Shown here: one piece after another, positions 15,216-48,778 of the stretch
Layout: every line of letters starts with the position of its first letter
How positions within the stretch are numbered: the first letter of the stretch is position 1
Origin: Giardia intestinalis
Taxonomy: Eukaryota
DNA length: 64,000 nt
Assembly: GCA_000002435.2 (NCBI GenBank)
Contig: CM018792.1
Direction: 5' to 3' (one strand)
The notes under the pieces: generated by a model
Told to the model about the DNA's origin: nothing
Databases searched by the model: none
Seen by the model: only the letters and a program-made list of their open reading frames with translations
Made by a program: the position numbers and the translations under genes

Positions 15216-17249
15216 ATGGTCCCCCTGTCCCAGATAAGCAAGAGCATTGAATCATTCACCCATCTGTGTGCATGCGAGAAGTCTCTAACTGCCTTCTCTG
15301 CGTCTTTACAGCACACCGCCGATGCTATATTTGCACGCTGCAGCTCCATGAAGGAGGCTAACGATCTCGTCACAAAGGCCTTCAGCAGCGTCGCCGACCA
15401 AAAGAGCTCTATACAAGAGCTGACTCAGATGGCAAATGAGTACTTATTGCCACTGGAGAGCGAGTCGTCCCTTTTTGTCGATCCATTAAACAGTGTAAGC
15501 TTTCACACAGCAGCCCTCGAGCTCGTGAGACACATAATAAAACTGAACCTCAAGCAGCTGCTCTCAAAAAGTCTTGCACAGTATCTAAACTCCATAGTCA
15601 GCAGAGAGTACCTGTTGGCATCGGACATATTTACCGACACTGCAGACTTGCGGATAATTAAGATACACCAGCTCATAACCAGAACTGTCGATAGGTATTA
15701 TGACGTGGAAGGGTTCATGCTCAAGCACTTCACAGAGTATCTTTATCGGGTAAAGGCCCTTATTCCTAAGCTTGCAACAACAGATAGTGTGCTATTCACC
15801 ACTTCTCCGCCTTTCCCGTGGTCATCCAAGATGAAGACGCGTTCGTTTCATAGCTACTCTATGGTATCTCTGACATCTTGGCAGGGGTCTCCCGCAGCGG
15901 ATGTGCTCTCTTCTGTAGCGTCAGCACTGGCTAACCTTGATCCTGAAAAATTGTCCAAGCAAGCCAGGGAGAGCATTCTTCCCTGGCTCAACACTGTGTG
16001 CAACTATATTGAGCAAGGTCTCACCGCCTGCTATTCAACGGTCATAGTGTTGTTGTATCTCAAGCCAGTGATACTGACAAATATTCTTTCTTTGATGAAC
16101 AAGTGTCACGGGGTTATGCTCCCATGTATCTTTAAGTTGCAATCTTTTTCAAGTGGTACTACACTTAATAGTAGCATTTGCAGATCAATTAAGCCCCTGA
16201 TCTCATCATTGTGTGCAGAATCAGGGTCATTGCAGATCTGTGTCAACGGGAATAGCCTGAGTAATTACGCTGCAAAGCTTTCCACGCTTAGCAGCGCCTC
16301 TGCATCTTCAGAGAAGAATTTTCTCAACTCTATCATAGTAGGATATAGGGAGGTGTATGATCAATTACTGCGAGATTCACATGTCTGCAATCCTTGTTCC
16401 AATATGAAGGTTGACCACGAGATTGACGACCCTTCTGAAGGCTTTGTCGCTGCTCTCGCAATTGCTGAGTTTAATCCACTTGATCATAAGCACGCTACAA
16501 CCGAACTTGACGATTATATCTCTCGTTATCCTCCTAACAGTGTAGATTTATTGATCGGTAAACGACCTAGTTCAGCGTTGAAGAAAAATCCTTCTGTTGA
16601 CATTCCTATGAAGAGCATCATGGACGCAGGAGTTAAAGACCTAGTTATAAGGTGTCAGTCATTATATTCCCTCTCTAAACCATTTGTCGTGTACATTTAT
16701 AGTGCTCTTGAATTTTGTAGTGCATATGAGAAAGGAGACTCCTTATGGAACAAGCTGTTGTCTGTCTCACCGGATTTCTTCAACTTAACCATGGAAGAGC
16801 ATAAGAGTTCTATGCATATAGTTCTTCAAGAATTTGCAGCACACCTTCGACAGGAGCTGACAGATGCACTTGCATGTGTACCTATTGGTGAAAAACTGTG
16901 CATTCTTCAACTATGCCTCACTAATTCATGCGATGGAATTGCCGAGATGGTCGCAGAGAGCATCACAACATACATATTCAACATAACAAAGAGGAGGGAG
17001 AGCATCCGGACCATTGCTACTTCATCTGACTCCACATTTGCATTTATTACTGCGCTTCTGGCATACTTGCATAAAGCCTTAACGCTACTTCTTTCATACG
17101 CGTCGACTCGGATGCTGAATCTTGTCTCCAAGCTAATTAAAACTCTAGAGCATGAATATGTTACAATGGCGCACAAGATACACCGGGGCTGCACTGAAGC
17201 CACTCACCTCTCACGACTAGCTATTCTTACACACGCTAAGTATCTCTAG
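15216..17249 (+). CDS. hypothetical protein (677 aa)
   Basis: Long ORF. Its TAG stop shares the CTAG tetranucleotide with the convergent gene 17246-19441. Confidence 0.55.
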   Translation: MVPLSQISKSIESFTHLCACEKSLTAFSASLQHTADAIFARCSSMKEANDLVTKAFSSVADQKSSIQELTQMANEYLLPLESESSLFVDPLNSVSFHTAALELVRHIIKLNLKQLLSKSLAQYLNSIVSREYLLASDIFTDTADLRIIKIHQLITRTVDRYYDVEGFMLKHFTEYLYRVKALIPKLATTDSVLFTTSPPFPWSSKMKTRSFHSYSMVSLTSWQGSPAADVLSSVASALANLDPEKLSKQARESILPWLNTVCNYIEQGLTACYSTVIVLLYLKPVILTNILSLMNKCHGVMLPCIFKLQSFSSGTTLNSSICRSIKPLISSLCAESGSLQICVNGNSLSNYAAKLSTLSSASASSEKNFLNSIIVGYREVYDQLLRDSHVCNPCSNMKVDHEIDDPSEGFVAALAIAEFNPLDHKHATTELDDYISRYPPNSVDLLIGKRPSSALKKNPSVDIPMKSIMDAGVKDLVIRCQSLYSLSKPFVVYIYSALEFCSAYEKGDSLWNKLLSVSPDFFNLTMEEHKSSMHIVLQEFAAHLRQELTDALACVPIGEKLCILQLCLTNSCDGIAEMVAESITTYIFNITKRRESIRTIATSSDSTFAFITALLAYLHKALTLLLSYASTRMLNLVSKLIKTLEHEYVTMAHKIHRGCTEATHLSRLAILTHAKYL

Positions 17250-19441
17250 ATCCTGTACTTTTCCAATGCTAGTGCCAATCTATCACGTGTCGATGCAGTT
17301 ACAACCTTTTCTAAGCTGAGAATGACGTCTATTACTGCAAGCGCGACGTCGTTTAACTCTTTAACACGGCATAGGATGCGGAGACACATATCAGCCTTTT
17401 CTTCGCTAGACTCTATCTTTGCAAGACACGTCTTTATTGCTGTGGCTATGAATGTAGCTGCATTTGTTTCGCCGGGCTGAAGCTCTCTATACCACAGAGC
17501 TATCTGATCAAGTAGGTCGTTTATGATCTCTTTCCTTTTGCTAGGACGAATATCCGATATGAATAGGCCAACCTGCATCATGCTTTCCAGAATGGGTACG
17601 CTCTTTAGTGACCAAAGGTTTGTCCCTGCCCGCAGCACCTGATACGCATGAGCAGTAATGTCCTTCCATTGACTATCTGTCAGCCACTCGTTGATAATAG
17701 CTACTTTGATGAGTTCAGTCACGTGCTTATTTGCTCCACTCCATTGCACTTGAAGAATGAGTGTTTTCAGAAGTCTTTGAACCATGAGGCTATCAAATAG
17801 CTGCATTTCGGGCCCCATATAGAACATTGGGTGCCTCAACACAGGGAGCAGAAGGGAGCACAGAGTGTCAGTCACAAATCTGCGCTCATCAGCAGCATCT
17901 AGCGCTGACCCAGAACTGCGCGAAAAGGCCTCCTCCTTTAGAAACACAGAAATCCAACCACAGGAGATCAGTGTCTGAAGCCCTGCCACCAGTGGAGCAG
18001 TGCTTTCCGTGGATACTTGTGAGGTTGCACACACTAAGCTAGCTATAGGAAGAGCAGGGTGAAAAGCACCTAACATATCTATGAGGTTAACTGCTCTGTA
18101 TGAAGCGTTGCAATTGCTCTTTTGTGCTTGTGATTGATCGAACAATAAGCCACCAGCGACAGAAGCAAAGAGATCCAGCCACGGTTTGAGACGCTTCCAC
18201 TCCATTTTTTGGTTCATTAAGCTGACAAGTAGCTTGATAAGGCTGTGATACCGATGGACCTCGTCCAAAGCTTTCCATAAAGGTCTACAGAGGGGATTGA
18301 TCCAAAATTTATTATTAACAGTTAAGCTAGAGATGTTGTAGTTGGATGATAATAAATCCATAGCCTTCAAGGCCACAAGAGCTGAGCCGATGTGTTCAGG
18401 AGAAAAAGCGGCTTCCTGCAATGCAGCCTCTATGCTATCTGATGTCGATAACGAATACGGATCGGTGTATAGTTCAACTACTTGACGAATCAATGCAAGT
18501 ATCGAGGGTACTAAAGGATGGTTGACTGCATGCTTAAGCGGGTCATCATCCGCAGAACTCCCAGTACTGGTCAAACCATGAGAAAGTAAGGGACAAGGAT
18601 TAGTGGACCTTTTGATGTATTCAAACTTATTTAGAAATGCGAGATAGCGAAACGGTCCGTCTGGATAGCGCATGAGTGTAGTTATTACTGGCTTGCTAAC
18701 AATCTGTAAAATAAACTCACCATCGGATTGAAACAGCGCCTCCTTTGATAAATTAACAATGTGAATATAGTTGTTGAAGGGAAAGCTTGGCTGGTTCGCA
18801 AGCAGAGCTGTGTATGTGAGAGATTTAAGTAGGTAGTAATCAACCGCATCTATCCCACCCGAGTCCGCTAGCGAGTCAAGGCGCCTTAGAAATAGGCTAC
18901 CTATTGTCTTGCTGTACTCAAAGCAGTGTAGAAGCCAGTACCAAACCAACAGTAGCGGGCAAGTGAGACAGATCTGTGGTAGATGTGCCAGTATGGTTTC
19001 CCACAGAGATTTGTGCATGTAAATTGGTAATGTAGACAGCCCCCAGCAAACAACAGCCCTAACAGCCGAGCTATTCTGATATTGAAACGCGTATTGTAAG
19101 AGACAAGTAAAGGCTTCTAAATCGGCGTCCTGAAGTAGCAAAGTGCGGCCGCAGCTTATTCCTAGTTGATCAGGTCCATACCTAGTCAGCAGTAGCTCTT
19201 CCAGTAGCACAATAGATATGCATCTGGTACGATGCCAGATGACCGTCCCCTGCTTTGGAGAGGCAGCAACACAGAAAGCTTGCCATAGCAGCTTAATTCT
19301 GTCCTCAGGGGTCATGCACAAATCCTGGTGGTGTAAGATGGATCGCACGTCTTCTGTGCCCGACGTCTGAAGGATACCCTCAACAGATGGATCGCACATA
19401 AATAAAAAAATCTGACAATTTATGGAGCACAAGATTCGCAC
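17246..19441 (-). CDS. hypothetical protein (731 aa), helical
   Basis: Long ORF convergent with 15216-17249 and overlapping it by 4 nt. Confidence 0.55.
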   Translation of the reverse strand: MRILCSINCQIFLFMCDPSVEGILQTSGTEDVRSILHHQDLCMTPEDRIKLLWQAFCVAASPKQGTVIWHRTRCISIVLLEELLLTRYGPDQLGISCGRTLLLQDADLEAFTCLLQYAFQYQNSSAVRAVVCWGLSTLPIYMHKSLWETILAHLPQICLTCPLLLVWYWLLHCFEYSKTIGSLFLRRLDSLADSGGIDAVDYYLLKSLTYTALLANQPSFPFNNYIHIVNLSKEALFQSDGEFILQIVSKPVITTLMRYPDGPFRYLAFLNKFEYIKRSTNPCPLLSHGLTSTGSSADDDPLKHAVNHPLVPSILALIRQVVELYTDPYSLSTSDSIEAALQEAAFSPEHIGSALVALKAMDLLSSNYNISSLTVNNKFWINPLCRPLWKALDEVHRYHSLIKLLVSLMNQKMEWKRLKPWLDLFASVAGGLLFDQSQAQKSNCNASYRAVNLIDMLGAFHPALPIASLVCATSQVSTESTAPLVAGLQTLISCGWISVFLKEEAFSRSSGSALDAADERRFVTDTLCSLLLPVLRHPMFYMGPEMQLFDSLMVQRLLKTLILQVQWSGANKHVTELIKVAIINEWLTDSQWKDITAHAYQVLRAGTNLWSLKSVPILESMMQVGLFISDIRPSKRKEIINDLLDQIALWYRELQPGETNAATFIATAIKTCLAKIESSEEKADMCLRILCRVKELNDVALAVIDVILSLEKVVTASTRDRLALALEKYRI

Positions 19442-19895
19442 AGAGCCTCGCTATCTTCGCCAAATGGCTGTCAACAACCTTGTACACGGAATCCTGTACT
19501 TGGTGCTAGCCATTTGCGGAGCCATAGGGTGTTCTCGAATCTACCTTTTGCCAAACACGTTTCAGTTTAAATCGGCTCTGGCGACCATGACGGCCTTCTT
19601 CTTTCTCGAGGGACCTATGCTCCTGATCAGCTTCTGGCACCGTCTACGTCGTGAGTCCAGTAGTTACAACATAATGATTTTGAATGTAATCAGGACAATG
19701 GTCACTGTCGTCAGATACTGCATCAACATTTGGCTCATCTTTGCTCTCTTTAAGATCAACGCTATGGACTTGTCCGAACCCTTTTCCTTCTGGACCGGAG
19801 TGACGATTGCTCTGTTTCACGTGCTTGAGCTCTTCTTCCTTATTTCTATTTTCATGTCTGCGCTGCTCCGACCAATCGTTTGCTGCTGCGTGTAG
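19422..19895 (+). CDS. small multi-pass membrane protein (157 aa; probable start at Met15, nt 19464)
   Basis: Four hydrophobic helix-like segments (LVHGILYLVLAICGAIG, TMTAFFFLEGPMLLISFW, IWLIFALF, TIALFHVLELFFLISIFMSALL). The first 20 nt overlap the divergent gene. Confidence 0.4.
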   Translation: MEHKIRTEPRYLRQMAVNNLVHGILYLVLAICGAIGCSRIYLLPNTFQFKSALATMTAFFFLEGPMLLISFWHRLRRESSSYNIMILNVIRTMVTVVRYCINIWLIFALFKINAMDLSEPFSFWTGVTIALFHVLELFFLISIFMSALLRPIVCCCV

Positions 19896-19994
19896 CATTA
19901 TCGATGTATAGCGTGTTCTGGTATGTCAAGGTTTACTCATGCAGCCAGTTGTATTTAGTTTCTGAGGTATGCTTTCCTCATCCATTCTTTGTTG

Positions 19995-21263
19995 CTAGTG
20001 TGCTCCGTTTGCGTGTGCCTCCAGGGCACACGGATCTAAAGTAATCTCTAGGGGTGTGAGCTCTGTACTTACACTGCTTTCGCGGATATCAGTGTAGAGC
20101 TTCTGTAAATGCGGTGTTTGATCCACGCATCCCTTGCAAAATGGCAGCACAGTTCCGCACGGGGTGATGGAGGGGGTGGGAGTCGTGCTAGAAGGCACGG
20201 CGAGAGGCGGGAGTTTGTTCTCCTTTTCCTGTGATAGCTTAAGAAGACTGCTGAAGAATCGCCTTGTCTGAGGGGTGTCGTGGCTTATTCCCCAATACCC
20301 ATGGTCAGAGACTAGCACTGCCTTAGACGGAGAAGACAAGGTAACGATGTGCATTGTGCCTGGGCCCTCTCGAGGAGAGACACTATCACTTACTGAAGAT
20401 TGAGACACAGTTTCCGTGGGCTGCAATCTATCAGTGACCGGACTTGCAAGACCAACCTCTGCAGAGTCACAGCTAAGCAGCGCAGAGTCACTGGACGCAG
20501 AACACGACTCTGATCTGCTGCTAGTGCTGGAGCAATCGTTTCTGGGGTCCCTATAAAAAGCTCGTTTCCGCTTGCGAGGCGGATAGCAATCTGGGTCAAC
20601 ATTATGCAGAGAATGCCCACTTCTAGACGCATGTACATCTTTGAAGGATTTCTCAGAGAGAGATGTGCCTAGCCCCATCTGGTCAGCCTTTGTGATGATG
20701 CCTCGACATACTGTAGATAGGCTCTCGTTATTCCAGGAGTAGCTAGGCTTTGACCCACGCTGGTTAATAATGGTAATAAGGTGCATACCTTCTAATATGT
20801 TGGTAATGTCATACAGTCGACGCACCTGACTCGACTTCAATCCGAGGGTGCTTTCAATGGATGCCAGAGAGACGTTTCCTGGGGCCGCCTTAATTATGTG
20901 GCTCATAAACCATATGGACAGTTCATGAAGCTTAAAGCGAGTGTTTGCATTGAGGCTGGTAGAGCTACTTGACGCCGCCCGGCTTACAAAGGCCTGGACT
21001 GCTTGGTCTACAAAGGCGAGACCGATAAATTCATAGTGGGGCCCTTGCTGCTTGATGATAATACCGAGCGCCTCTAGAACGTTTATCAGATCGTAGAGCC
21101 GTCTACTTTCAATAGCCAGCTTATCGCAGACCTCTTTAATAGTAAATCCAAAAGGCTCCTCGTGGTTACAAGCAATAGCAAAGAACTTCCTGGTGAGATC
21201 GACGAGTTTGCGAACCTTCGGGTTCCGTTGACGTACTTGAGGACTTTGGCCTGCGAGCTGCAT
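19995..21263 (-). CDS. E2F-family transcription factor with two tandem winged-helix DNA-binding domains (atypical E2F7/E2F8/DEL-like)
   Basis: Two copies of the E2F_TDP signature: 'LTRKFFAIA...RRLYDLINVLEALGIIIK' and 'LASIESTLGLKSSQVRRLYDITNILEGMHLITI' (E2F consensus RRIYDITNVLEGIGLIEK). No DP-dimerisation or leucine-zipper region is apparent. Ser-rich C-terminus. Confidence 0.75.
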   Translation of the reverse strand: MQLAGQSPQVRQRNPKVRKLVDLTRKFFAIACNHEEPFGFTIKEVCDKLAIESRRLYDLINVLEALGIIIKQQGPHYEFIGLAFVDQAVQAFVSRAASSSSTSLNANTRFKLHELSIWFMSHIIKAAPGNVSLASIESTLGLKSSQVRRLYDITNILEGMHLITIINQRGSKPSYSWNNESLSTVCRGIITKADQMGLGTSLSEKSFKDVHASRSGHSLHNVDPDCYPPRKRKRAFYRDPRNDCSSTSSRSESCSASSDSALLSCDSAEVGLASPVTDRLQPTETVSQSSVSDSVSPREGPGTMHIVTLSSPSKAVLVSDHGYWGISHDTPQTRRFFSSLLKLSQEKENKLPPLAVPSSTTPTPSITPCGTVLPFCKGCVDQTPHLQKLYTDIRESSVSTELTPLEITLDPCALEAHANGAH

Positions 21264-21533
21264 TAAAAAATGAATTGCGGGAACGCAGATTTTGAAATCA
21301 TAAGATTGACGCAGTGTACTGACTTGCCTAATTGCTCATTTCTCCTTTTTATTTAATATTGCTCTATACCTATCGATCTTTATTGACCTTCGTATCATTG
21401 GGCAATGGTTCTTTTGTTGTCCTTGCTTGCAAGTAGGATAGAGATGTGCCTGATTAAACTTTCCACCTTCTTTCAAGTCTGGGTATGAAATTCGGTGATT
21501 ACTCAAAGATCACGGGACTGGAACCTAGTTTGA

Positions 21534-29923: not shown

Positions 29924-30430
29924 TTATTATTCTCAAAGTTTGCAAGAGCTGTGAAAATTTGTGGTTCCACGCTTGCCACACGTTTCAGAAGGCGGTAGCA
30001 TCCAGCCATGCTGAGGTCGCAGGCGCGTTGGCCACGTACCTTACAGAAGAAGGCCTAGTTTTATTCTTGGACGTTCTCCCTGAAGGTACTTGGCTAATAT
30101 TTCTCTGCTGCACTTCGCGGTGAAACATTCAACTTTTACACTGCTCTGCCCACACTTTCTAGTGTGAGAGAGTACTTTTGTGTACTAAACTAATCCTATT
30201 AGCTGCACCCGGCCCGTCGTCTGAGCCCGGTGTAATCCCTTGTACCCAGTCCTACGGCTTCTACCTTCTGTCATCCACCTACGGAGGTCCTGCTCACCGG
30301 TGCCCATGGGTCCACTCCACACCAACGAGCACGCGAGCTATCAATGTATGTCATCGATTCAAAGTCCGGTATGTTACAAGTCCCGGTAGCGGTCTTTACT
30401 TCCTGGACACAGGCACACATCAATCGGCTA

Positions 30431-31660
30431 ATGTTCGAGAAAATTCTCCTCGGAATCGCTATCTTGCAGATGGCGCGGGCATCCACGTGTCAAGCACAAA
30501 GCGGCGGCGATCCTGGAACTTGTGAGAAATGTGATGCTCTTATTGGCCAAACGAAGTATTGTTCTAAGTGCAACGGAGCAAACTACGCCCCCGTGAACGG
30601 TGCTTGTGAGGACGTGGAGACGCAGGAGGATAAAAAAGCTCTTTGCAAAGCACACGCCAGCGGGGCTTGTACAACGTGCGGAGGCGCCTCCTTCATGTAC
30701 AAGGACGGCTGTTATTCAAAGGACACTGAACCAGGACAGAGCATGTGCACGCAAGCCTCTGAGGGAAAATGCACCGAGGCGGCCCCGGGGTACTTTGCTC
30801 CGGTGGGAGCGGCGAACACTGAACAATCTGTGGTCGCATGTGGCGATACAACTGGAGTAACAATAGCAGCTGGCGGAAACACATACAAGGGCATTGCTGA
30901 CTGCGCAGAGTGCGGCGCCCCTGACGCAACAGCCGGCGCTGAGGCCGGCAAGGTTGCAACGTGTACCAAGTGTGGAGTCAGTAAGTATCTCAAGGATAAT
31001 ACGTGCGTAGATAAAGCCCAGTGCGATTCTGGTAACACCAACAAGCTCGTTGCCGTTGACGATCCTGAGAATGGCAACAAATGTGTTTCTTGCAGCGATA
31101 ACCTCAATGGTGGCGTTGCCAATTGCGACACCTGTAGCTACGATGAGCAATCTAAGAAGATCAAGTGTACAAAATGCACCGATAACAACTACCTGAAAAC
31201 CACAAGCGAAGGCACGTCGTGCGTACAAAAAGACCAATGCAAAGACGGCTTCTTCCCCAAGGATGACAGCAGTGCAGGAAATAAATGCCTCCCTTGTAAT
31301 GACAGCACCGACGGAATTGCCAATTGCGCCACGTGTGCTCTGGTTAGTGGCCGATCAGGGGCTGCCCTCGTTACGTGCTCCGCCTGCATAGACGGTAAGA
31401 GACCCAACAAGGAAGGCGCAGCATGCTTTGAATGTAACATGGAAGGCTGTGTTTATTGTAGCGGTGCTAATAAGTGCGAGGAGTGCAGCGATGGGTTCAA
31501 ATTAGAGGGTGACAAGTGCGTGTCTTCTGGCAGTGCGGGAGTCAATAAGAGTGGGCTCAGCACAGGGGCCATCGCGGGGATCTCCGTGGCTGTGATCGCT
31601 GTCGTGGCTGGCCTTGTGGGCTTCCTCTGCTGGTGGTTTGTGTGTAGAGGAAAGGCGTGA
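30431..31660 (+). CDS. vsp: variant-specific surface protein (VSP)
   Basis: Signal-peptide-like N-terminus (MFEKILLGIAILQMARAS), many CXXC motifs, a GGCY motif, and a C-terminal TM helix followed by the invariant VSP tail '...GFLCWWFVCRGKA'. The start is taken at the signal-peptide Met (30431) rather than the upstream in-frame ATG at 30344. Confidence 0.9.
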   Translation: MFEKILLGIAILQMARASTCQAQSGGDPGTCEKCDALIGQTKYCSKCNGANYAPVNGACEDVETQEDKKALCKAHASGACTTCGGASFMYKDGCYSKDTEPGQSMCTQASEGKCTEAAPGYFAPVGAANTEQSVVACGDTTGVTIAAGGNTYKGIADCAECGAPDATAGAEAGKVATCTKCGVSKYLKDNTCVDKAQCDSGNTNKLVAVDDPENGNKCVSCSDNLNGGVANCDTCSYDEQSKKIKCTKCTDNNYLKTTSEGTSCVQKDQCKDGFFPKDDSSAGNKCLPCNDSTDGIANCATCALVSGRSGAALVTCSACIDGKRPNKEGAACFECNMEGCVYCSGANKCEECSDGFKLEGDKCVSSGSAGVNKSGLSTGAIAGISVAVIAVVAGLVGFLCWWFVCRGKA

Positions 31661-31830: not shown

Positions 31831-33081
31831 CTACAAGTCACGCCGATAGTTATCGCGATGTTTCTCAGTCCCCTTAGATTGTCGCTGGTGCTGTATGCGC
31901 CGCCATTGCTCTTTCCGTAACTGTCTTTGTACCGCCTGCCGTATATCTACTACCTTCCTCATCCTAGGCTCCTTAGACTTGTCAACTGGATCTGCATCAT
32001 CATCTACCATACTATTTGAACATTCATCAACAGCTTCGTCACCTTCTTTAATCTCAAGCTCTTCGTCAGGATCATATTTAGCCACCATCTCCTTAACAAA
32101 GGCCTCTGTTGCATCAATCCGTTGACCCACTAATTCCTCTTCAGAAATTTGACGCATAACTTCATTGTAGCGTGGAAGCACAATGTCTGCTCCAAATCTT
32201 CGATTGAAGAAACCCTCAACAGACATTACATCGCGATTAAATTGTTCTTCGGCTTCAGGAGCTATCGACTGTATCACCTGAGGAAAATCGATGATCACTA
32301 CACGGGTAGTCTCCGGGGTGCAATTTTCTGGATCTGAGGTCTGGACTATTGCATTGAACTCGTTGCAATCTCCGTGTACAATCCCGTATCTTAGCATCCG
32401 CACCATTTGAGTGTGTATATCTTTGGCCAGCAAGTTTGCAGCCTCTATGTCGATATCCTTAATCGCATGCATTGGTATTCCTTCAACGTAGGACATGCAC
32501 ACACAGTGGCGATTGATGGAGATGGGATCGGGAACAGGGAAGCTTCTCTCCTTCAATGCAACCATAAATCCAAACTCTCTAACGGCAGCAAGTCGAGAGA
32601 GGTACATCCAAGAAGCACTCTTCCGGGGTCCCATGTAATCCCGTTTTGTCTTGGCTGTTTTAAAGCTGGTGCGACCAAGCTTGTGAAGTTTGAGCACAAC
32701 ATATTGACCATTAGGACGCATAGCCATGTACACGTCTGCTTCTTTTCCAACACCGATTCGGGATCCTATAGCAGAAATGACTCCGCGACGCTTCATGACA
32801 TTGAGCGAGAGGTAGTCATATCCCATATACGTCAAAGCGTAGCCATCAATCGGTGCTCCTATGTGAGAGATGAGCTTTATCTTTAAAAGCTCCTGCACAA
32901 TGTGTGGTATAGACCCGTGGCGAATCCCAGAAAGGCTGATTACCAGGTTAAGAGGAACGTAGTCATGGTTCTTCATCCCCATCTCAACTGCTGTCAAGAC
33001 TCGGTAGTAGCTCGGAGGCAGGGAGTCGACGTAGGAGACGTCGAGGTTCGGCATTGCAATTAATGAAATGAATTTACTCAT
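31831..33081 (-). CDS. RIO2: RIO2 serine/threonine protein kinase (ribosome small-subunit biogenesis)
   Basis: N-terminal winged-helix region, then the RIO-domain motifs 'IGVGKEADVY', 'LKLHKLGRTSFK', 'YLSRLAAVREF' and catalytic 'IVHGDCNEFNAIV'. Acidic/basic C-terminal tail. Confidence 0.85.
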   Translation of the reverse strand: MSKFISLIAMPNLDVSYVDSLPPSYYRVLTAVEMGMKNHDYVPLNLVISLSGIRHGSIPHIVQELLKIKLISHIGAPIDGYALTYMGYDYLSLNVMKRRGVISAIGSRIGVGKEADVYMAMRPNGQYVVLKLHKLGRTSFKTAKTKRDYMGPRKSASWMYLSRLAAVREFGFMVALKERSFPVPDPISINRHCVCMSYVEGIPMHAIKDIDIEAANLLAKDIHTQMVRMLRYGIVHGDCNEFNAIVQTSDPENCTPETTRVVIIDFPQVIQSIAPEAEEQFNRDVMSVEGFFNRRFGADIVLPRYNEVMRQISEEELVGQRIDATEAFVKEMVAKYDPDEELEIKEGDEAVDECSNSMVDDDADPVDKSKEPRMRKVVDIRQAVQRQLRKEQWRRIQHQRQSKGTEKHRDNYRRDL

Positions 33082-41184: not shown

Positions 41185-44100
41185 CTACGCTTTCCCCCGA
41201 CAAATAAACCACCAACAGAGGAAGCCGGCAAGGCCTCCGACGACGACCACCACGGCGACGGTGATACCTGCTATGGCGCCTGTGGAAAGGCCTCCCTTAT
41301 TGACGCTTCCACCGGCACCGCCGCTAGATACGCATGCGTTTGCGGCCTCGTCCAGTGCGTGCCCCTCCGCGCATGCTTTGCACTTGGCTGTGCCCGTGTC
41401 CCCTGTCGGCGCATCACAGGCCGCACAGTTTGCCACTCCTTTGTTGCTATCTGCACCAACGGAGTCTGAGCACAGAATGCACTCGCTGCCCGGTGTCTTA
41501 ACTGATGCCTTGTTTTGGAAAACACTTCCGTCAGCCTTGCAAGCGGCACATACCCCACCGACTGCATTGGTGCATATAAGTTCTCCGGGAGACGCCCCTG
41601 TTTTATAACAGCCGCCCATGAAGAGGAAGTACCCGTCGCCGCCACATTTACCACACGAGGTGTCCGTGCCCTCTATTGCGGCTCCGCCCGATTGCGTGCA
41701 CTTTGCCGTCTTTGTGACGAGATCGTCCCCGAACGCCGTGCAGACACCGTCGATGGGTGCGAAGCCCTGCTTGCATTGTGTACACGCTTGGGCTGATCCT
41801 ATAGTTACCAGTTTGTCGACCTCGCATTGGAAAGACGGAGGGGCCCTGCATGCGTTTGCGGCCTCGTCCAGTGCGTGCCCCTCCGCGCATGCTTTGCACT
41901 TGGCTGTGCCCGTGTCCCCTGTCGGCGCATCACAGGCCGCACAGTTTGCCACTCCTTTGTTGCTATCTGCACCAACGGAGTCTGAGCACAGAATGCACTC
42001 GCTGCCCGGTGTCTTAACTGATGCCTTGTTTTGGAAAACACTTCCGTCAGCCTTGCAAGCGGCACATACCCCACCGACTGCATTGGTGCATATAAGTTCT
42101 CCGGGAGACGCCCCTGTTTTATAACAGCCGCCCATGAAGAGGAAGTACCCGTCGCCGCCACATTTACCACACGAGGTGTCCGTGCCCTCTATTGCGGCTC
42201 CGCCCGATTGCGTGCACTTTGCCGTCTTTGTGACGAGATCGTCCCCGAACGCCGTGCAGACACCGTCGATGGGTGCGAAGCCCTGCTTGCATTGTGTACA
42301 CGCTTGGGCTGATCCTATAGTTACCAGTTTGTCGACCTCGCATTGGAAAGACGGAGGGGCCCTGCATGCGTTTGCGGCCTCGTCCAGTGCGTGCCCCTCC
42401 GCGCATGCTTTGCACTTGGCTGTGCCCGTGTCCCCTGTCGGCGCATCACAGGCCGCACAGTTTGCCACTCCTTTGTTGCTATCTGCACCAACGGAGTCTG
42501 AGCACAGAATGCACTCGCTGCCCGGTGTCTTAACTGATGCCTTGTTTTGGAAAACACTTCCGTCAGCCTTGCAAGCGGCACATACCCCACCGACTGCATT
42601 GGTGCATATAAGTTCTCCGGGAGACGCCCCTGTTTTATAACAGCCGCCCATGAAGAGGAAGTACCCGTCGCCGCCACATTTACCACACGAGGTGTCCGTG
42701 CCCTCTATTGCGGCTCCGCCCGATTGCGTGCACTTTGCCGTCTTTGTGACGAGATCGTCCCCGAACGCCGTGCAGACACCGTCGATGGGTGCGAAGCCCT
42801 GCTTGCATTGTGTACACGCTTGGGCTGATCCTATAGTTACCAGTTTGTCGACCTCGCATTGGAAAGACGGAGGGGCCCTGCATGCGTTTGCGGCCTCGTC
42901 CAGTGCGTGCCCCTCCGCGCATGCTTTGCACTTGGCTGTGCCCGTGTCCCCTGTCGGCGCATCACAGGCCGCACAGTTTGCCACTCCTTTGTTGCTATCT
43001 GCACCAACGGAGTCTGAGCACAGAATGCACTCGCTGCCCGGTGTCTTAACTGATGCCTTGTTTTGGAAAACACTTCCGTCAGCCTTGCAAGCGGCACATA
43101 CCCCACCGACTGCATTGGTGCATATAAGTTCTCCGGGAGACGCCCCTGTTTTATAACAGCCGCCCATGAAGAGGAAGTACCCGTCGCCGCCACATTTACC
43201 ACACGAGGTGTCCGTGCCCTCTATTGCGGCTCCGCCCGATTGCGTGCACTTTGCCGTCTTTGTGACGAGATCGTCCCCGAACGCCGTGCAGACACCGTCG
43301 ATGGGTGCGAAGCCCTGCTTGCATTGTGTACACGCTTGGGCTGATCCTATAGTTACCAGTTTGTCGACCTCGCATTGGAAAGACGGAGGGGCCCTGCATG
43401 CGTTTGCGGCCTCGTCCAGTGCGTGCCCCTCCGCGCATGCTTTGCACTTGGCTGTGCCCGTGTCCCCTGTCGGCGCATCACAGGCCGCACAGTTTGCCAC
43501 TCCTTTGTTGCTATCTGCACCAACGGAGTCTGAGCACAGAATGCACTCGCTGCCCGGTGTCTTAACTGATGCCTTGTTTTGGAAAACACTTCCGTCAGCC
43601 TTGCAAGCGGCACATACCCCACCGACTGCATTGGTGCATATAAGTTCTCCGGGAGACGCCCCTGTTTTATAACAGCCGCCCATGAAGAGGAAGTACCCGT
43701 CGCCGCCACATTTACCACACGAGGTGTCCGTGCCCTCTATTGCGGCTCCGCCCGATTGCGTGCACTTTGCCGTCTTTGTGACGAGATCGTCCCCGAACGC
43801 CGTGCAGACACCGTCGATGGGTGCGAAGCCCTGCTTGCATTGTGTACACGCTTGGGCTGATCCTATAGTTACCAGTTTGTCGACCTCGCATTGGAAAGAC
43901 GGAGGGGCCCTGCATGCGTTTGCGGCCTCGTCCAGTGCGTGCCCCTCCGCGCATGCTTTGCACTTGGCTGTGCCCGTGTCCCCTGTCGGCGCATCACAGG
44001 CCGCACAGTTTGCCACTCCTTTGTTGCTATCTGCACCAACGGAGTCTGAGCACAGAATGCACTCGCTGCCCGGTGTCTTAACTGATGCCTTGTTTTGGAA

Positions 44101-45627
44101 AACACTTCCGTCAGCCTTGCAAGCGGCACATACCCCACCGACTGCATTGGTGCATATAAGTTCTCCGGGAGACGCCCCTGTTTTATAACAGCCGCCCATG
44201 AAGAGGAAGTACCCGTCGCCGCCACATTTACCACACGAGGTGTCCGTGCCCTCTATTGCGGCTCCGCCCGATTGCGTGCACTTTGCCGTCTTTGTGACGA
44301 GATCGTCCCCGAACGCCGTGCAGACACCGTCGATGGGTGCGAAGCCCTGCTTGCATTGTGTACACGCTTGGGCTGATCCTATAGTTACCAGTTTGTCGAC
44401 CTCGCATTGGAAAGACGGAGGGGCCCTGCATGCGTTTGCGGCCTCGTCCAGTGCGTGCCCCTCCGCGCATGCTTTGCACTTGGCTGTGCCCGTGTCCCCT
44501 GTCGGCGCATCACAGGCCGCACAGTTTGCCACTCCTTTGTTGCTATCTGCACCAACGGAGTCTGAGCACAGAATGCACTCGCTGCCCGGTGTCTTAACTG
44601 ATGCCTTGTTTTGGAAAACACTTCCGTCAGCCTTGCAAGCGGCACATACCCCACCGACTGCATTGGTGCATATAAGTTCTCCGGGAGACGCCCCTGTTTT
44701 ATAACAGCCGCCCATGAAGAGGAAGTACCCGTCGCCGCCACATTTACCACACGAGGTGTCCGTGCCCTCTATTGCGGCTCCGCCCGATTGCGTGCACTTT
44801 GCCGTCTTTGTGACGAGATCGTCCCCGAACGCCGTGCAGACACCGTCGATGGGTGCGAAGCCCTGCTTGCATTGTGTACACGCTTGGGCTGATCCTATAG
44901 TTACCAGTTTGTCGACCTCGCATTGGAAAGACGGAGGGGCCCTGCATGCGTTTGCGGCCTCGTCCAGTGCGTGCCCCTCCGCGCATGCTTTGCACTTGGC
45001 TGTGCCCGTGTCCCCTGTCGGCGCATCACAGGCCGCACAGTTTGCCACTCCTTTGTTGCTATCTGCACCAACGGAGTCTGAGCACAGAATGCACTCGCTG
45101 CCCGGTGTCTTAACTGATGCCTTGTTTTGGAAAACACTTCCGTCAGCCTTGCAAGCGGCACATACCCCACCGACTGCATTGGTGCATATAAGTTCTCCGG
45201 GAGACGCCCCTGTTTTATAACAGCCGCCCATGAAGAGGAAGTACCCGTCGCCGCCACATTTACCACACGAGGTGTCCGTGCCCTCTATTGCGGCTCCGCC
45301 CGATTGCGTGCACTTTGCCGTCTTTGTGACGAGATCGTCCCCGAACGCCGTGCAGACACCGTCGATGGGTGCGAAGCCCTGCTTGCATTGTGTACACGCT
45401 TGGGCTGATCCTATAGTTACCAGTTTGTCGACCTCGCATTGGAAAGACGGAGGGGCCCTGCATGCGTTTGCGGCCTCGTCCAGTGCGTGCCCCTCCGCGC
45501 ATTCCATGGGACTGCTTATTCCCTCTATTGTTCCGCACTGATTGCCAGTTGCGCGACTGTTTCTAGTGCCTCCAGCGCAGTTTGCAGCAAGCACATTCAG
45601 CACGAATAGAAGCTCTACTACCAACAT
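41185..45627 (-). CDS. vsp: variant-specific surface protein (VSP) containing ~8 identical 172-aa tandem repeats (1480 aa)
   Basis: Signal peptide MLVVELLFVLNVLAANCAGG, CXXC-rich ectodomain with GGCY motifs, C-terminal TM helix and the tail 'GFLCWWFICRGKA'. The internal unit 'CAEGHALDEAANACRAPPSFQCEVDK...TGDTGTAKCKA' is repeated 8 times. Confidence 0.9.
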   Translation of the reverse strand: MLVVELLFVLNVLAANCAGGTRNSRATGNQCGTIEGISSPMECAEGHALDEAANACRAPPSFQCEVDKLVTIGSAQACTQCKQGFAPIDGVCTAFGDDLVTKTAKCTQSGGAAIEGTDTSCGKCGGDGYFLFMGGCYKTGASPGELICTNAVGGVCAACKADGSVFQNKASVKTPGSECILCSDSVGADSNKGVANCAACDAPTGDTGTAKCKACAEGHALDEAANACRAPPSFQCEVDKLVTIGSAQACTQCKQGFAPIDGVCTAFGDDLVTKTAKCTQSGGAAIEGTDTSCGKCGGDGYFLFMGGCYKTGASPGELICTNAVGGVCAACKADGSVFQNKASVKTPGSECILCSDSVGADSNKGVANCAACDAPTGDTGTAKCKACAEGHALDEAANACRAPPSFQCEVDKLVTIGSAQACTQCKQGFAPIDGVCTAFGDDLVTKTAKCTQSGGAAIEGTDTSCGKCGGDGYFLFMGGCYKTGASPGELICTNAVGGVCAACKADGSVFQNKASVKTPGSECILCSDSVGADSNKGVANCAACDAPTGDTGTAKCKACAEGHALDEAANACRAPPSFQCEVDKLVTIGSAQACTQCKQGFAPIDGVCTAFGDDLVTKTAKCTQSGGAAIEGTDTSCGKCGGDGYFLFMGGCYKTGASPGELICTNAVGGVCAACKADGSVFQNKASVKTPGSECILCSDSVGADSNKGVANCAACDAPTGDTGTAKCKACAEGHALDEAANACRAPPSFQCEVDKLVTIGSAQACTQCKQGFAPIDGVCTAFGDDLVTKTAKCTQSGGAAIEGTDTSCGKCGGDGYFLFMGGCYKTGASPGELICTNAVGGVCAACKADGSVFQNKASVKTPGSECILCSDSVGADSNKGVANCAACDAPTGDTGTAKCKACAEGHALDEAANACRAPPSFQCEVDKLVTIGSAQACTQCKQGFAPIDGVCTAFGDDLVTKTAKCTQSGGAAIEGTDTSCGKCGGDGYFLFMGGCYKTGASPGELICTNAVGGVCAACKADGSVFQNKASVKTPGSECILCSDSVGADSNKGVANCAACDAPTGDTGTAKCKACAEGHALDEAANACRAPPSFQCEVDKLVTIGSAQACTQCKQGFAPIDGVCTAFGDDLVTKTAKCTQSGGAAIEGTDTSCGKCGGDGYFLFMGGCYKTGASPGELICTNAVGGVCAACKADGSVFQNKASVKTPGSECILCSDSVGADSNKGVANCAACDAPTGDTGTAKCKACAEGHALDEAANACRAPPSFQCEVDKLVTIGSAQACTQCKQGFAPIDGVCTAFGDDLVTKTAKCTQSGGAAIEGTDTSCGKCGGDGYFLFMGGCYKTGASPGELICTNAVGGVCAACKADGSVFQNKASVKTPGSECILCSDSVGADSNKGVANCAACDAPTGDTGTAKCKACAEGHALDEAANACVSSGGAGGSVNKGGLSTGAIAGITVAVVVVVGGLAGFLCWWFICRGKA
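41300..45500. repeat. tandem array of ~8 apparently identical 516-bp units inside the VSP coding region
   Basis: The six-frame track shows identical ORFs recurring every 516 nt (e.g. 41618, 42134 ... 45230 and 41515, 42031 ... 45127). The flanks diverge at ~41330 and ~45497. The period is a multiple of 3, so the frame is maintained. Confidence 0.9.
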
Positions 45628-45985: not shown

Positions 45986-48486
45986 TCCTATGCCCGCCTC
46001 CCCTAGAAGCTGCCGCTCCTCGCGGTGCCCCCTAGGACTTCCTTCTCTCTGGCCCGTCGGGGCCAACCATCGTCTGGCATCTAGTGAGCACCCGCTGTCC
46101 CGGGCCTTGCGTCGGTCACAGGACCTGGCCTCAGAGCAGTTGACTCTGGCGCTCCGTGACGAAGATGGGATACGCCACGACCCCGGGTGCCTACCCCGTT
46201 CCTCGGGGTGCCTCTTCGTCTTCTCATGAAGCGAGTCATCAGTCCCGAGTATGATCGGAGGGTGCGCTCCCCGTGCGCCTCTGTCTTGGAGTCATAGTAC
46301 GCGTTCGTGGATGCCGGCGGAGTACTCCTATACGTTGGCGTCGGGGAGGAGGCTCGGCCCTCTGCTCACGGATCGCAGGGCGCTCTTGCAGGTGCTCCGT
46401 CACCCAGCACGAGATCATGTCGACGCTCACCCTGTGCAGTGTGTCTGGCTCAGTGATGTGTGGGCTGGTCCATCCTCACACCGCACACTTGGGGTGATGC
46501 TTCGGTCCACCGAGGCGTCGTCCAAAGCATCAGAAGCGATCAGGACCGGTTCGCTGTCAGGCCGTCTCTCTCTACAACCGGCACCCGTCTACTCGATGGT
46601 GTCAAAGGATTACGCAGCTGCTGTGGTAAGCGCCCAGCAAGTGGCCCAGGCCGCCACCACTCTCCGGTGCAGGCAGGATTAGTCCACTTCTGCCAGCCAG
46701 ACACTCCAAGGATCCCGACTTGCCTGTCGAGGGATTCACATGGGTCACGTGTGGGTCCGTCTCGACCAGCGTGGTGAGTGATTAGTGCCATCACTAGCTT
46801 CAAGCTCTCCGTTGCCTTGGAAGCTCCTTAAGACCGGCCAGGAAGAAGGCCTCCTGCTCCTCAGTGCTCCCACACCCAGTGTTGACCGTCGAGCCAATCG
46901 CTTCGCCGGGCCTATCGCTTCTGTGACTGCCCCGTCGCGTCGCTGTCGTCGGCACGGGCAGTGAGCGGGGCATCTCCTCAGCTCCTGGCGAGCAGGTTCT
47001 GTCCCGCGCAGCACAGAAGCATGCGCAGGGTCCCGAGGGACCGAGTCCAGGGGTGCAGCGTGTCGCAGCCGGAGGAAGGCCTCGACGCAGCTCCTTGGAA
47101 CTGTGTTGTGGAGCGAATCATGATCGTCCGTTCATCGTGCTTGTCCTGCCCTGTCTCTGGGGAAGGGCTAGACGGAACCGTACGGAGCACGCATTCCATC
47201 CTATGGATCGCGCCGAGGATCTCGCTGAAGGCCTGCACCCGGATGGGCTCGCCAGCGCAGGCCCGGAGACTTCGAGCCCCGCGGACTGGCCGTCCGTGCT
47301 CTCCGATGGCTGAGGGGGCTCTTGTCTCTCAGGGGCCAGGCCGTCCTGATCCGGCCCTCTGGATAGCAAGGTGCTGGTCGTCGGTGGCGCTGTTAGGGGG
47401 CAGCTCCCCCTCGAGGCGAGGCTTCAGGCCGGGCAGTGGGGTGGTGAATGCCGCTCCTCCGCTTCCCCGCTGTGTGGGGAGGTACCCTCCCCTGAGCACG
47501 TTCGCACGAAGGGCGCTGAAGAGGACGTCCTTCTCCATCCCCGCTGCCCCACTCAGTAGCACCCTGCATCCGGTGTCCGTGCTGCATACGTCTGGACGGC
47601 CTCGCCGCGGAGGGTCTTCGCGCAGGACAGGCACGTGCTCTTCCGCTCCTACTACTTTGGCGTTCGCCCGGTGCCGCTCCAGCGCAGAGTGCTCCTCTCC
47701 GTCAGGTTCCTAAGGTCCTCGTTCTCGCTGTGATACCTGATCTATCCCTCTTGAGGGGTGGGGTTCACGGTGCACTGGTGCGTGTCCGGGGCGACGTCTC
47801 CCTTGTAGAGTTCTGCAGGTTCCACGACCCTCTGGGGATAGCCAGCGACTGGGACCCCTGTTTGAGGCTAGGGCTGGCCTGGCTCCACCGGGCCGCGAAC
47901 AACTCAAGGGCGCTCTGGTGTCGCTGGTCTCTCAACCGCACACTCGACCTGTCTTAGCAGATAACGGGTCGTGCCTGGGCACCTCCGGGAAGCGCTCCGG
48001 TCCGATGCTTTCTGTCCGGGGCATCACGGCAGGCAACGGTGAGGGCCCACGAGGGACACCGCACTCGGGCGCCGGGGCATGGTGCATGGGCTGGCACCGT
48101 CTGTCTGTCGCAAGGCTGCAGAAGGAGCTCAGACGGGGAGGGTTCCCGAGACGTGCTGCTCAGGGCCCTCCGGTGATGTGAAGGAGGCGTGGCAGCTCCT
48201 CGTGCTGTGGATCGCATAGGAGGTCCCCGATGGTGCAGTCTCTTAGTGAACTCCAGCATCCTTGAGCCAGTTCGTGTAGTCAGCGAGTGACCCCATTGGG
48301 ACCATTGAGAGCCTGCCACCATGCGCCGCTCTCCATGACAGGGAGGTGCGGGCCCCCTGCTCACTCTATCGGCTGCTCTCTAGACTCTCTTCTTCGGGCC
48401 TCTACAAGCCCTCCTCGGCGGCTTCCCGTCTGGGCCTCTCCCAAAGGCTCGGACTCTCAGACCTCGAGGGTGCGCAGAGGGCTGGC

Positions 48487-48738
48487 GGGTGCTGGGCCGG
48501 CGGGGGGTCCGGCGAGGGGCCGCGGTCGGTTAGCTCAGTCGGTAGAGCGTCAGTCTGATAAGCTGAAGGCGGGTGCTGGGCCGGCGGGGGGTCCGGCGAG
48601 GGGCCGCGGTCGGTTAGCTCAGTCGGTAGAGCGTCAGTCTGATAAGCTGAAGGCGGGTGCTGGGCCGGCGGGGGGTCCGGCGAGGGGCCGCGGTCGGTTA
48701 GCTCAGTCGGTAGAGCGTCAGTCTGATAAGCTGAAGGT
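48487..48738 (+). repeat. three tandem 84-bp units, each containing 41 nt of GC-rich leader plus the 5' 43 nt (acceptor-D-anticodon arm) of tRNA-Ile
   Basis: The unit 'gggtgctgggccggcggggggtccggcgaggggccgc|ggtcggttagctcagtcggtagagcgtcagtctgataagctgaagg' recurs at 48487, 48571 and 48655. Only the third copy continues into the variable loop, T arm and acceptor 3' strand. Confidence 0.8.
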
Positions 48739-48764
48739 CGGGGGTTCGAGCCCCCCACCGACCA
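48692..48764 (+). tRNA. tRNA-Ile (anticodon GAU)
   Basis: Manual cloverleaf: 7-bp acceptor GGTCGGT/ACCGACC; D arm GCTC-AGTCGGTA-GAGC; anticodon arm TCAGT-CTGATAA-GCTGA (U33, anticodon GAT, A37); 5-nt variable loop; T arm GGGGG-TTCGAGC-CCCCC; discriminator A. No encoded CCA. Closely resembles eukaryotic tRNA-Ile genes. Confidence 0.8.
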
Positions 48765-48778
48765 CTTTGTCTTCCATA

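What the first reader, a model, noticed from the sequence alone, without database searches (positions are those of the whole stretch)
19995..21263. Atypical E2F with two DNA-binding domains in a diplomonad
The ORF carries two consecutive E2F winged-helix signatures (RRLYDLINVLEALGII and RRLYDITNILEGMHLI) and no obvious DP-dimerisation or marked-box region. That is the architecture of E2F7/E2F8 and plant DEL, which bind DNA without DP partners. Its presence in a deep-branching protist bears on the origin of the atypical E2F branch and on cell-cycle and encystation transcription control, where E2F-like factors have been implicated.
Basis: partly seen in the sequence, partly recalled or inferred. 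Interest (0 to 1): 0.5.

Follow-up and report, generated by a model that had tools for sequence, protein, structure and literature searches.

The report
Giardia's already-known atypical E2F (E2F1)

Summary
The ORF at 19995..21263 (-) is real (422 aa) and carries two independently significant Pfam E2F_TDP domains (50.3 and 42.8 bits; cut-off 25.7). It has no coiled-coil/marked-box or DP dimerisation domain. The only significant structural match is human E2F8 (4yo2). Cross-scoring shows DBD1 is DEL/E2F7-8 DBD1-type. DBD2 is second-domain-type (clear with a broad reference set, marginal with a small labelled set) and not DP-like.

It is not new. The window is Giardia intestinalis WB, and the protein is exactly XP_001705587.1 / A8BQ51 = GL50803_23756. 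This is the 'E2F1' of Su et al. 2011, an encystation-induced nuclear factor that activates the cwp1-3 and thymidine kinase promoters. The identical sequence is in the E2F/DP phylogeny dataset of Medina et al. 2016 as 'GintDEL', the only Giardia member of the family there.

One small addition: an E2F-type site (TTCSCGCAATT) lies 10-48 nt upstream of the start codon of this gene in G. intestinalis lineages, G. muris and a more distant relative. This suggests autoregulation. I could not establish whether that has been reported.

The parts
19995..21263 (-). Coding sequence of Giardia intestinalis E2F1 / GL50803_23756 (422 aa, stop codon 19995..19997)
   Evidence: ORF. Exact match to XP_001705587.1 / KAE8304110.1 / UniProt A8BQ51. 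Orthologue row GL50803_23756-GLP15_1009, with GLP15_1009 in the same 90% cluster.
21018..21212 (-). DNA-binding domain 1 (aa 18-82), winged helix, DEL/E2F7-8 DBD1-type
   Evidence: Pfam E2F_TDP 50.3 bits. pLDDT 84-93. Scores 49.4 bits against the labelled DEL-DBD1 HMM, vs 33.6 for typical E2F and 21.2 for DP.
21090..21104 (-). RRLYD recognition motif of DBD1 (aa 54-58)
   Evidence: Read from the sequence. Invariant in 7 Giardia-lineage orthologues.
20940..21017 (-). Short inter-domain linker (aa 83-108), starting with a predicted helix (aa 82-98)
   Evidence: AF2 secondary structure. The linker is about 27 aa, compared with a median of 67 aa in 45 other two-domain proteins.
20730..20939 (-). 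DNA-binding domain 2 (aa 109-178), winged helix with an extended wing (QRGSKPSYSW), second-domain type and not DP-like
   Evidence: Pfam E2F_TDP 42.8 bits. Broad second-domain HMM 49.6 bits vs first-domain HMM 32.5. DP HMM only 11 bits.
20808..20822 (-). RRLYD recognition motif of DBD2 (aa 148-152)
   Evidence: Read from the sequence. Invariant in the orthologues.
20562..20582 (-). Basic patch PPRKRKR (aa 228-234) inside a variable Ser-rich linker; candidate nuclear localisation signal
   Evidence: Alignment A1: conserved in G. intestinalis lineages, absent from the G. muris and P0007 orthologues. The NLS role is inferred only.
20220..20354 (-). Conserved C-terminal block (aa 304-348, MHIVTLSSPSKAVLVSDHGYWGISHDTPQTRRFFSSLLKLSQEKE) of unknown function
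   Evidence: Conserved across all 7 Giardia-lineage orthologues, including G. muris. No Pfam hit. AF2 predicts three strands plus a helix at low confidence, pLDDT 41-51.
21273..21283 (-). E2F-type site TTCCCGCAATT in the gene's own promoter, at -20..-10 from the ATG
   Evidence: Single match in the 64-kb window (0.07 expected). Exactly one match in each of 6 loci, always just upstream of the orthologue on the gene strand. A-priori core test.
21264..21272 (-). AT-rich stretch (CATTTTTTA) directly abutting the ATG; initiator-like
   Evidence: Sequence. Part of the 30 nt that are perfectly conserved among G. intestinalis lineages. AT-rich initiators next to the start codon are described for Giardia promoters.
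19931..19937 (-). AGTAAAC about 58 nt after the stop codon; matches the Giardia polyadenylation-signal consensus AGTRAAY
   Evidence: Sequence. The consensus comes from my own knowledge of Giardia mRNA 3' ends and was not tested here.

Best explanation
The ORF encodes Giardia intestinalis E2F1 (GL50803_23756), the single E2F-family protein of this organism and a member of the atypical E2F7/E2F8/DEL branch. Two winged-helix domains in one chain pack against each other as an intramolecular substitute for the E2F-DP heterodimer. Each contributes an RRLYD recognition helix, so the protein binds TTTSSCGC-type sites without a DP partner; this step is inferred from the E2F8 structure and the shared architecture. 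The rest of the protein is a variable Ser-rich linker with a basic patch plus a Giardia-specific conserved C-terminal block, which probably mediates nuclear import and contacts with co-factors (inferred). According to the literature, the protein is nuclear, is induced in mid-encystation, binds and activates the cwp1-3 and thymidine kinase promoters, and associates with Myb2 and MBF1. A conserved E2F-type site in its own proximal promoter suggests that it also regulates itself (inferred here).
For: Architecture: two E2F_TDP domains, each above the Pfam cut-off on its own, with no CC-MB or DP domain. Structure: confident model for aa 18-195, and the sole significant PDB fold match is E2F8, 4yo2; by sequence, both domains also align to E2F8. 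Subfamily: Giardia DBD1 scores 49-57 bits with the labelled DEL-DBD1 HMM, vs 31-39 for typical E2F. With HMMs from 143 two-domain proteins, DBD1 scores 56-63 (first-domain HMM) vs 25-28 (second-domain HMM), and DBD2 scores 49-51 (second) vs 31-34 (first), whereas typical E2F domains show the opposite preference, 72 vs 44. Those 143 proteins are themselves DEL-class by the labelled HMMs, 143/143 and 142/143. The nearest non-Giardia relatives include a protein from the fornicate Dysnectes brevis, consistent with vertical descent. Identity: exact match to XP_001705587.1/A8BQ51; GL50803_23756-GLP15_1009 orthologue row; identical sequence labelled GintDEL and the only 'Gint' entry in the E2F/DP dataset of Medina et al. 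2016. Function from the literature. Promoter site.
Against: With the small, plant-heavy labelled set, DBD2 is only marginally DEL-DBD2-type; for the WB protein, typical E2F scores 33.8 and DEL-DBD2 32.0. A distance tree on 69 columns does not resolve the placement: DBD2+DEL2 gets 37% bootstrap, and the DEL-DBD1 references are not monophyletic. The 143 broad references were selected by similarity to the Giardia two-domain profile, which biases the cross-scores somewhat. Reported function is activation, whereas animal E2F7/8 and plant DEL1 are repressors. The primary paper (Su et al. 2011) could not be read, so its content is taken from citing papers, and my recollection that its abstract states 'two putative DNA-binding domains' is unverified. 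DP-independence is inferred, not shown here.
Confidence: 0.9

Rival explanations
1. Convergence: a typical single-domain E2F duplicated its DNA-binding domain within the diplomonad/fornicate lineage, independently of the duplication that gave E2F7/8 and DEL.
For: The single-domain NJ tree is unresolved. DBD2 scores about equally with the typical-E2F and labelled DEL-DBD2 HMMs. The inter-domain linker is unusually short, about 27 aa against a median of 67.
Against: The two Giardia domains are only 17/50 identical to each other. Each prefers the positionally matching domain of other two-domain proteins by about 17-30 bits. DBD1 is clearly DEL-DBD1-type with labelled references. The DBD2 wing carries the extended 'KPSYSW' segment resembling 'RKPAF/YxW' of DEL DBD2 (references, read directly). 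Medina et al. labelled the sequence DEL in their phylogeny dataset.
Confidence: 0.06
2. E2F-DP fusion: the second domain derives from a DP gene fused behind an E2F domain, giving a covalent heterodimer.
For: In the E2F8 structure, the second domain plays the positional role of DP (established knowledge about 4yo2). No separate DP is listed for Giardia.
Against: Giardia DBD2 scores only 11 bits against a DP-domain HMM, while DP references score 141.6. It groups with DP in 1% of bootstraps. There is no Pfam DP dimerisation domain.
Confidence: 0.02
3. A typical E2F that still needs a partner: the second domain is degenerate and DNA binding requires dimerisation with another protein.
For: DBD2 is the more divergent domain (42.8 vs 50.3 bits). 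The protein co-precipitates with other factors (Myb2, MBF1).
Against: DBD2 keeps the RRLYD motif and is nearly invariant across Giardia lineages. It folds confidently. No coiled-coil/marked-box is present. Citing papers state that the protein binds the tk and cwp promoters.
Confidence: 0.02

Closest known systems
Giardia lamblia E2F1 (ORF 23756; Su et al. 2011, J Biol Chem 286:34101) = 'GintDEL' of Medina et al. 2016 (eLife 5:e09492)
   Same: It is the same gene. The sequence matches XP_001705587.1/A8BQ51 exactly, matches the GintDEL entry, and is tied to GL50803_23756 through its P15 orthologue GLP15_1009.
   Different: Nothing at the sequence level. The conserved promoter element and the C-terminal block described here may or may not be covered in the primary paper, which I could not read.
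Human E2F8 / E2F7 (structure 4yo2)
   Same: Two tandem E2F winged helices in one chain, an RRxYD motif in both, and no DP dimerisation or marked-box region. E2F8 is the only significant fold match (E 1.6e-5, TM 0.62 on the target, 24% identity).
   Different: The Giardia protein is much smaller (422 aa), with a much shorter inter-domain linker (about 27 aa). Its C-terminal half is unrelated, with a Giardia-specific conserved block. It is reported as a transcriptional activator of encystation genes rather than a cell-cycle repressor.
Plant DEL1-3 (E2Fd-f)
   Same: Same two-domain architecture and similar overall size (about 350-480 aa). Giardia DBD1 scores best with a DEL-DBD1 HMM dominated by plant sequences.
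   Different: DBD2 is only weakly closer to plant DEL DBD2 than to typical E2F. The conserved plant C-terminal motif seen in the sequences is absent.
Typical E2F1-6 with DP1/2
   Same: Same winged-helix fold and the same RRxYD recognition motif. E2F4 (1cf7) is the second PDB sequence hit.
   Different: Typical E2Fs have one DNA-binding domain plus a coiled-coil/marked-box and need DP. None of that is present here, and no Giardia E2F1-6, DP or Rb entry exists in the Medina dataset.

Membership tests
E2F/DP winged-helix superfamily (Pfam PF02319 E2F_TDP) | At least one E2F_TDP domain above the curated gathering score | tested here: met
   85.4 bits for the whole protein, against a cut-off of 25.7.
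Atypical E2F (E2F7/E2F8/DEL) | Two tandem E2F-type DNA-binding domains in one polypeptide | tested here: met
   50.3 and 42.8 bits when each half is scanned alone. Two winged helices are modelled at pLDDT 80-93.
Atypical E2F (E2F7/E2F8/DEL) | Intact RRxYD DNA-recognition motif in both domains | tested here: met
   RRLYD at aa 54-58 and aa 148-152. Both are invariant in 7 orthologues.
Atypical E2F (E2F7/E2F8/DEL) | Absence of a leucine-zipper/coiled-coil marked-box (E2F_CC-MB) and of a DP dimerisation domain | tested here: met
   No such Pfam hit even at E<=10, for the whole protein or the fragments.
Atypical E2F (E2F7/E2F8/DEL) | First domain homologous to DEL/E2F7-8 DBD1 rather than to typical E2F or DP | tested here: met
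   DEL-DBD1 HMM 49-57 bits, vs E2F 31-39, DP 21-22 and DEL-DBD2 18-22. Broad first-domain HMM 56-63 vs second-domain HMM 25-28.
Atypical E2F (E2F7/E2F8/DEL) | Second domain homologous to DEL/E2F7-8 DBD2 | tested here: inconclusive
   Broad second-domain HMM 49-51 vs first-domain HMM 31-34 and 52-54 vs 30-32 both support it. The small labelled set is marginal (DEL2 32-35.5 vs E2F 28-34), and NJ bootstrap support is only 37%.
Atypical E2F (E2F7/E2F8/DEL) | Fold and relative arrangement of the two domains as in the E2F8-DNA structure | tested here: met
   Foldseek against PDB: 4yo2_A is the only hit with E<=0.001, with 191 aligned columns and a target-normalised TM-score of 0.62. The rmsd of 6.3 A means the inter-domain geometry is similar but not tightly matched.
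Atypical E2F (E2F7/E2F8/DEL) | DNA binding to TTTSSCGC-type sites without a DP partner | not testable with these tools
   Citing papers report binding to the tk and cwp promoters. No Giardia DP is in the Medina dataset. The primary data were not readable.
Atypical E2F (E2F7/E2F8/DEL) | Acts as a transcriptional repressor of E2F targets | not testable with these tools
   The literature reports the opposite for Giardia: transactivation of cwp1 and tk, and lower CWP1 on knockdown. This is a functional difference, not a structural criterion.
Typical E2F1-6 | Single DNA-binding domain followed by a coiled-coil/marked-box and a pocket-protein-binding transactivation domain | tested here: not met
   Two DNA-binding domains and no CC-MB hit.
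DP | DP-type DNA-binding domain plus a DP dimerisation domain | tested here: not met
   The DP HMM scores 21 bits (DBD1) and 11 bits (DBD2), while DP references score 141.6. There is no Pfam DP domain.

The most novel reading that the evidence does not exclude
The only possibly new element is regulatory. A conserved E2F-type site (TTCSCGCAATT) sits in the proximal promoter of the E2F1 gene in G. intestinalis lineages, G. muris and a more distant Giardia-like lineage. This implies an ancient autoregulatory loop on the sole, atypical E2F of an organism that lacks typical E2F, DP and Rb. If the site is functional and unreported, it would give a simple, testable circuit for the mid-encystation rise of E2F1.
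Probability: 0.3. Interest if true: 0.3.

Novelty: already known. Interest (0 to 1): 0.12.

Why it matters
An atypical E2F as the only E2F-family protein of Giardia is relevant to how E2F-type control worked in early eukaryotes and to how encystation genes are switched on. Both points are already in the literature: the protein was characterised in 2011, and it was placed among DEL/E2F7-8 proteins in a 2016 survey which concluded that all three E2F subfamilies occur across the major eukaryotic branches. This scan therefore adds confirmation, not discovery. The conserved E2F site in the gene's own promoter is a modest lead for people who study Giardia differentiation.

Tried and rejected
1. The word-indexed homologue search reached only Giardia-lineage proteins, both with the single protein and with the profile, and initially suggested the window was not G. 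intestinalis. The exact-sequence lookup corrected this.
2. The primary paper could not be read by PMC id or DOI. Searches for accession numbers or primers linking the ORF to '23756' found nothing in main texts, and the PNAS supplement is not held. The link came from an orthologue table.
3. My first domain caller, a generic Giardia DBD HMM, found two domains in only 45 of 146 hits. HMMs built from those 45 recovered 143.
5. The NJ bootstrap tree of single domains (69 columns) was uninformative. I do not use it for or against the placement.
6. My first promoter pattern, TTYCSCGCAATT, was mis-registered by one base and missed the WB site. TTCSCGCAATT is the correct shared core.
7. Window-wide counts of TTCCCGC and TTTSSCGC are not enriched: 2 found vs 5.2 expected, and 4 vs 6.6. 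The other copies lie inside coding regions, so no further target genes can be claimed in this window.
8. A search for reports of the e2f1 promoter in Giardia found nothing.
9. The C-terminal half has no Pfam hit and only a low-confidence model. No function can be assigned from these tools.

Full report
OBSERVATION. Both quoted signatures are present, with RRLYD motifs at aa 54-58 and aa 148-152. Pfam E2F_TDP (PF02319) hits the protein at E 2.2e-24 with two stretches. When the protein is cut into three pieces, the first 100 aa score 50.3 bits (E 2e-13) and the next 106 aa score 42.8 bits (E 4.5e-11), against a curated cut-off of 25.7. The last 216 aa match nothing, and no E2F_CC-MB or DP domain appears even at E<=10.

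ORGANISM AND IDENTITY. The window is gene-dense, with long intron-less ORFs on both strands. Ten window ORFs are exact matches to proteins of Giardia intestinalis ATCC 50803 (WB clone C6). The ORF in question is XP_001705587.1 / KAE8304110.1 / UniProt A8BQ51, annotated 'E2F/DP family winged-helix DNA-binding domain-containing protein'. Its assemblage E orthologue GLP15_1009 (EFO63167.1) is in the same 90% cluster and is 95% identical. An orthologue table in the supplement of PMC8700996 lists GL50803_23756 - GLP15_1009 - GSB_23756 - GMRT_13604. The ORF is therefore GL50803_23756.

WHAT IS ALREADY PUBLISHED. GL50803_23756 is the 'E2F1' of Su et al. 2011 (J Biol Chem 286:34101). That paper is not held in the library, so I rely on papers that cite it.
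- It co-precipitates with MBF1.
- It is nuclear, and its knockdown lowers CWP1.
- Its mRNA rises at about 10.5 h of encystation and in late axenic culture.
- My recollection that the abstract of Su et al. says 'two putative DNA-binding domains' is from memory and unverified.

Independently, the E2F/DP phylogeny dataset of Medina et al. 2016 (eLife 5:e09492, Figure 2-source data 2) contains the entry '>GintDEL', whose 422-aa sequence is this ORF. 'Gint' occurs only once in that file, and the Rb file has no Gint header. The main text of that paper states that all three E2F subfamilies (E2F1-6, DP, E2F7/8) occur across the major eukaryotic branches, including Excavata.

INDEPENDENT CHECKS OF THE ATYPICAL-E2F READING.
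Structure. An AlphaFold2 model built on seven Giardia-lineage orthologues is confident for aa 18-195 (pLDDT 80-93) and shows two winged helices. The rest is below 50. Foldseek against the PDB gives one hit with E<=0.001: 4yo2_A, human E2F8, with 191 aligned columns, TM 0.62 normalised on the target, and 24% identity. By sequence, E2F8 is also the best solved relative and aligns to both domains.

Architecture of relatives. A profile of the double domain searched against 1.84 billion representatives gives 801 hits at E<=0.001. Of the 146 best non-Giardia hits, 143 have a first-type domain followed by a second-type domain.

Domain-by-domain homology. I built HMMs from labelled references taken from the Medina dataset and the PDB alignment (11 typical E2F, 7 DP, 9 DEL/E2F7-8 DBD1, 7 DBD2).
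- Giardia DBD1 scores 49-57 bits with DEL-DBD1, against 31-39 (E2F), 21-22 (DP) and 18-22 (DEL-DBD2).
- Giardia DBD2 is clearly not DP-like (11 bits), but it is only marginally best with DEL-DBD2 (32-35.5 vs 28-34 for E2F). For the WB protein itself, E2F is slightly ahead, 33.8 vs 32.0.
- With broader HMMs from the 143 two-domain proteins, Giardia DBD1 scores 56-63 (first-domain HMM) vs 25-28 (second), and DBD2 scores 49-51 (second) vs 31-34 (first). Typical E2F domains have the opposite preference, 72 vs 44. Those 143 proteins are themselves DEL-class by the labelled HMMs (143/143 first domains, 142/143 second domains).
- This broad set was selected by similarity to the Giardia profile, so some bias is possible.
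- The two Giardia domains are only 17/50 identical to each other, so a recent internal duplication is excluded.
- A neighbour-joining bootstrap on 69 columns is unresolved (DBD2+DEL2 37%, DBD2+E2F 19%), and I treat it as uninformative.

Nearest relatives. The closest non-Giardia proteins are an unnamed 1,237-aa protein that aligns without gaps over 174 aa at the same coordinates and a protein from the fornicate Dysnectes brevis. This fits vertical inheritance.

MECHANISM. Shown here: there are two intact E2F winged helices with recognition motifs, no dimerisation module, and an E2F8-like fold. Inferred from the E2F8 structure (established knowledge): the two domains form an intramolecular pseudo-heterodimer that reads a TTTSSCGC-type site without DP. 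From the literature: the protein localises to the nucleus, binds promoters and activates transcription during encystation. The remaining parts are inferred:
- a variable Ser-rich linker with a PPRKRKR patch (aa 228-234) that is absent from G. muris;
- a C-terminal block (aa 304-348) conserved in all seven orthologues, with no family assignment, which could be a co-factor-binding or activation module.

AN ADDITION: A CONSERVED E2F-TYPE SITE IN THE GENE'S OWN PROMOTER. Twenty to ten nucleotides upstream of the ATG lies TTCCCGCAATT (21273..21283, minus strand), followed by an AT-rich stretch that abuts the start codon.
- TTCSCGCAATT occurs once in the 64-kb window (0.07 expected).
- It occurs exactly once in each of six fetched loci, always on the gene strand just upstream of the orthologue: at -20 in three G. 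intestinalis-type lineages, -25 in G. muris (TTTCGCGCAATT) and -48 in the most distant lineage.
- Among G. intestinalis lineages whose proteins are 75-83% identical, the 30 nt before the ATG are perfectly conserved, while the distal promoter is about 57% identical in a gapped alignment.
- An a-priori test with only the textbook core TT[CG][CG]CGC within 60 nt of the ATG gives chance frequencies of 0.010, 0.055 and 0.067 for the three independent lineages.

This suggests autoregulation. I found no open-access Giardia paper mentioning the e2f1 promoter, but I could not read the primary paper, so I cannot say the point is new.

VERDICT. The promoter element is a minor lead.

Noticed in passing
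window 21273..21283 (-); L003 1481-1491; L006 486-496; L004 1476-1486; L005 1453-1463: A conserved E2F-type element, TTCSCGCAATT, lies 10-48 nt upstream of the E2F1 start codon in G. intestinalis lineages, G. muris and a more distant relative. It is unique in the 64-kb window. This suggests autoregulation.
   Followed up: yes
window 20220..20354 (-), aa 304-348: A C-terminal block (MHIVTLSSPSKAVLVSDHGYWGISHDTPQTRRFFSSLLKLSQEKE) is conserved in all seven Giardia-lineage orthologues but has no Pfam match and only a low-confidence fold. Further short conserved motifs (TPCGT, QTPHLQKLY, LDPCALE) follow it.
   Followed up: partly
window 21264..21400 (-); protein P0005: One public assembly-derived protein (P0005, 256 aa) carries a 44-aa N-terminal extension. 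It arises from one fewer A in a homopolymer run upstream of the ATG, which removes the in-frame TGA seen in the window. It is probably an assembly or sequencing artefact. The ATG at 21263 is supported by promoter conservation.
   Followed up: partly
window 19422..19895 (+): A 157-aa ORF convergent with E2F1, with no Pfam hit and several hydrophobic stretches, is kept in the same position and orientation in other G. intestinalis lineages (157 aa) and in G. muris (156 aa). It is therefore a real, conserved small gene and a synteny anchor. Its start overlaps the start of the divergent ORF 17246..19441 (-) by 20 nt.
   Followed up: partly
window 41185..45627 (-), within a block of 58-64% G+C (about 42-50 kb): A 1,480-aa protein with eight matches to the Giardia VSP family (PF03302, E 2e-57) lies in a markedly G+C-rich block, compared with about 45% elsewhere in the window.
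   Followed up: partly
window 48692..48765 (+): tRNA-Ile (anticodon GAT), found by Rfam (74.7 bits) and ARAGORN. It lies in the most G+C-rich part of the window, among overlapping ORFs on both strands (46961..47713, 48287..49138, 48402..49157) that have no family match and may not be genes.
   Followed up: no
window 30344..31660 (+) and 31831..33081 (-): The longest ORFs for a VSP (438 aa) and RIO kinase 2 (416 aa) match the older gene models (XP_001705590.1, XP_001705591.1). The current models are shorter (409 and 407 aa), so the start codons were revised in the newer annotation.
   Followed up: no
protein P0118 (1,237 aa, Logan assembly): The closest non-Giardia relative aligns without gaps to aa 19-192 at 30% identity, but it has RRFYD in both recognition motifs and a roughly 1,000-aa unrelated tail. 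Its organism is unknown, probably another metamonad.
   Followed up: partly
literature: PMC8700996 main text: That paper prints the gene as 'EF2/DP (GL50803_23576)', which appears to be a transposition of GL50803_23756; its own supplementary table uses 23756.
   Followed up: partly
literature: supplement file 4 of PMC4862756: No Trichomonas vaginalis E2F, DP or DEL entries are in the Medina E2F/DP dataset (0 matches for TvagE2F, TvagDP and TvagDEL). Naegleria has a DEL entry, and the Spironucleus genome paper mentions E2F- and DP1-like factors. E2F-family content therefore seems to vary widely among metamonads.
   Followed up: no
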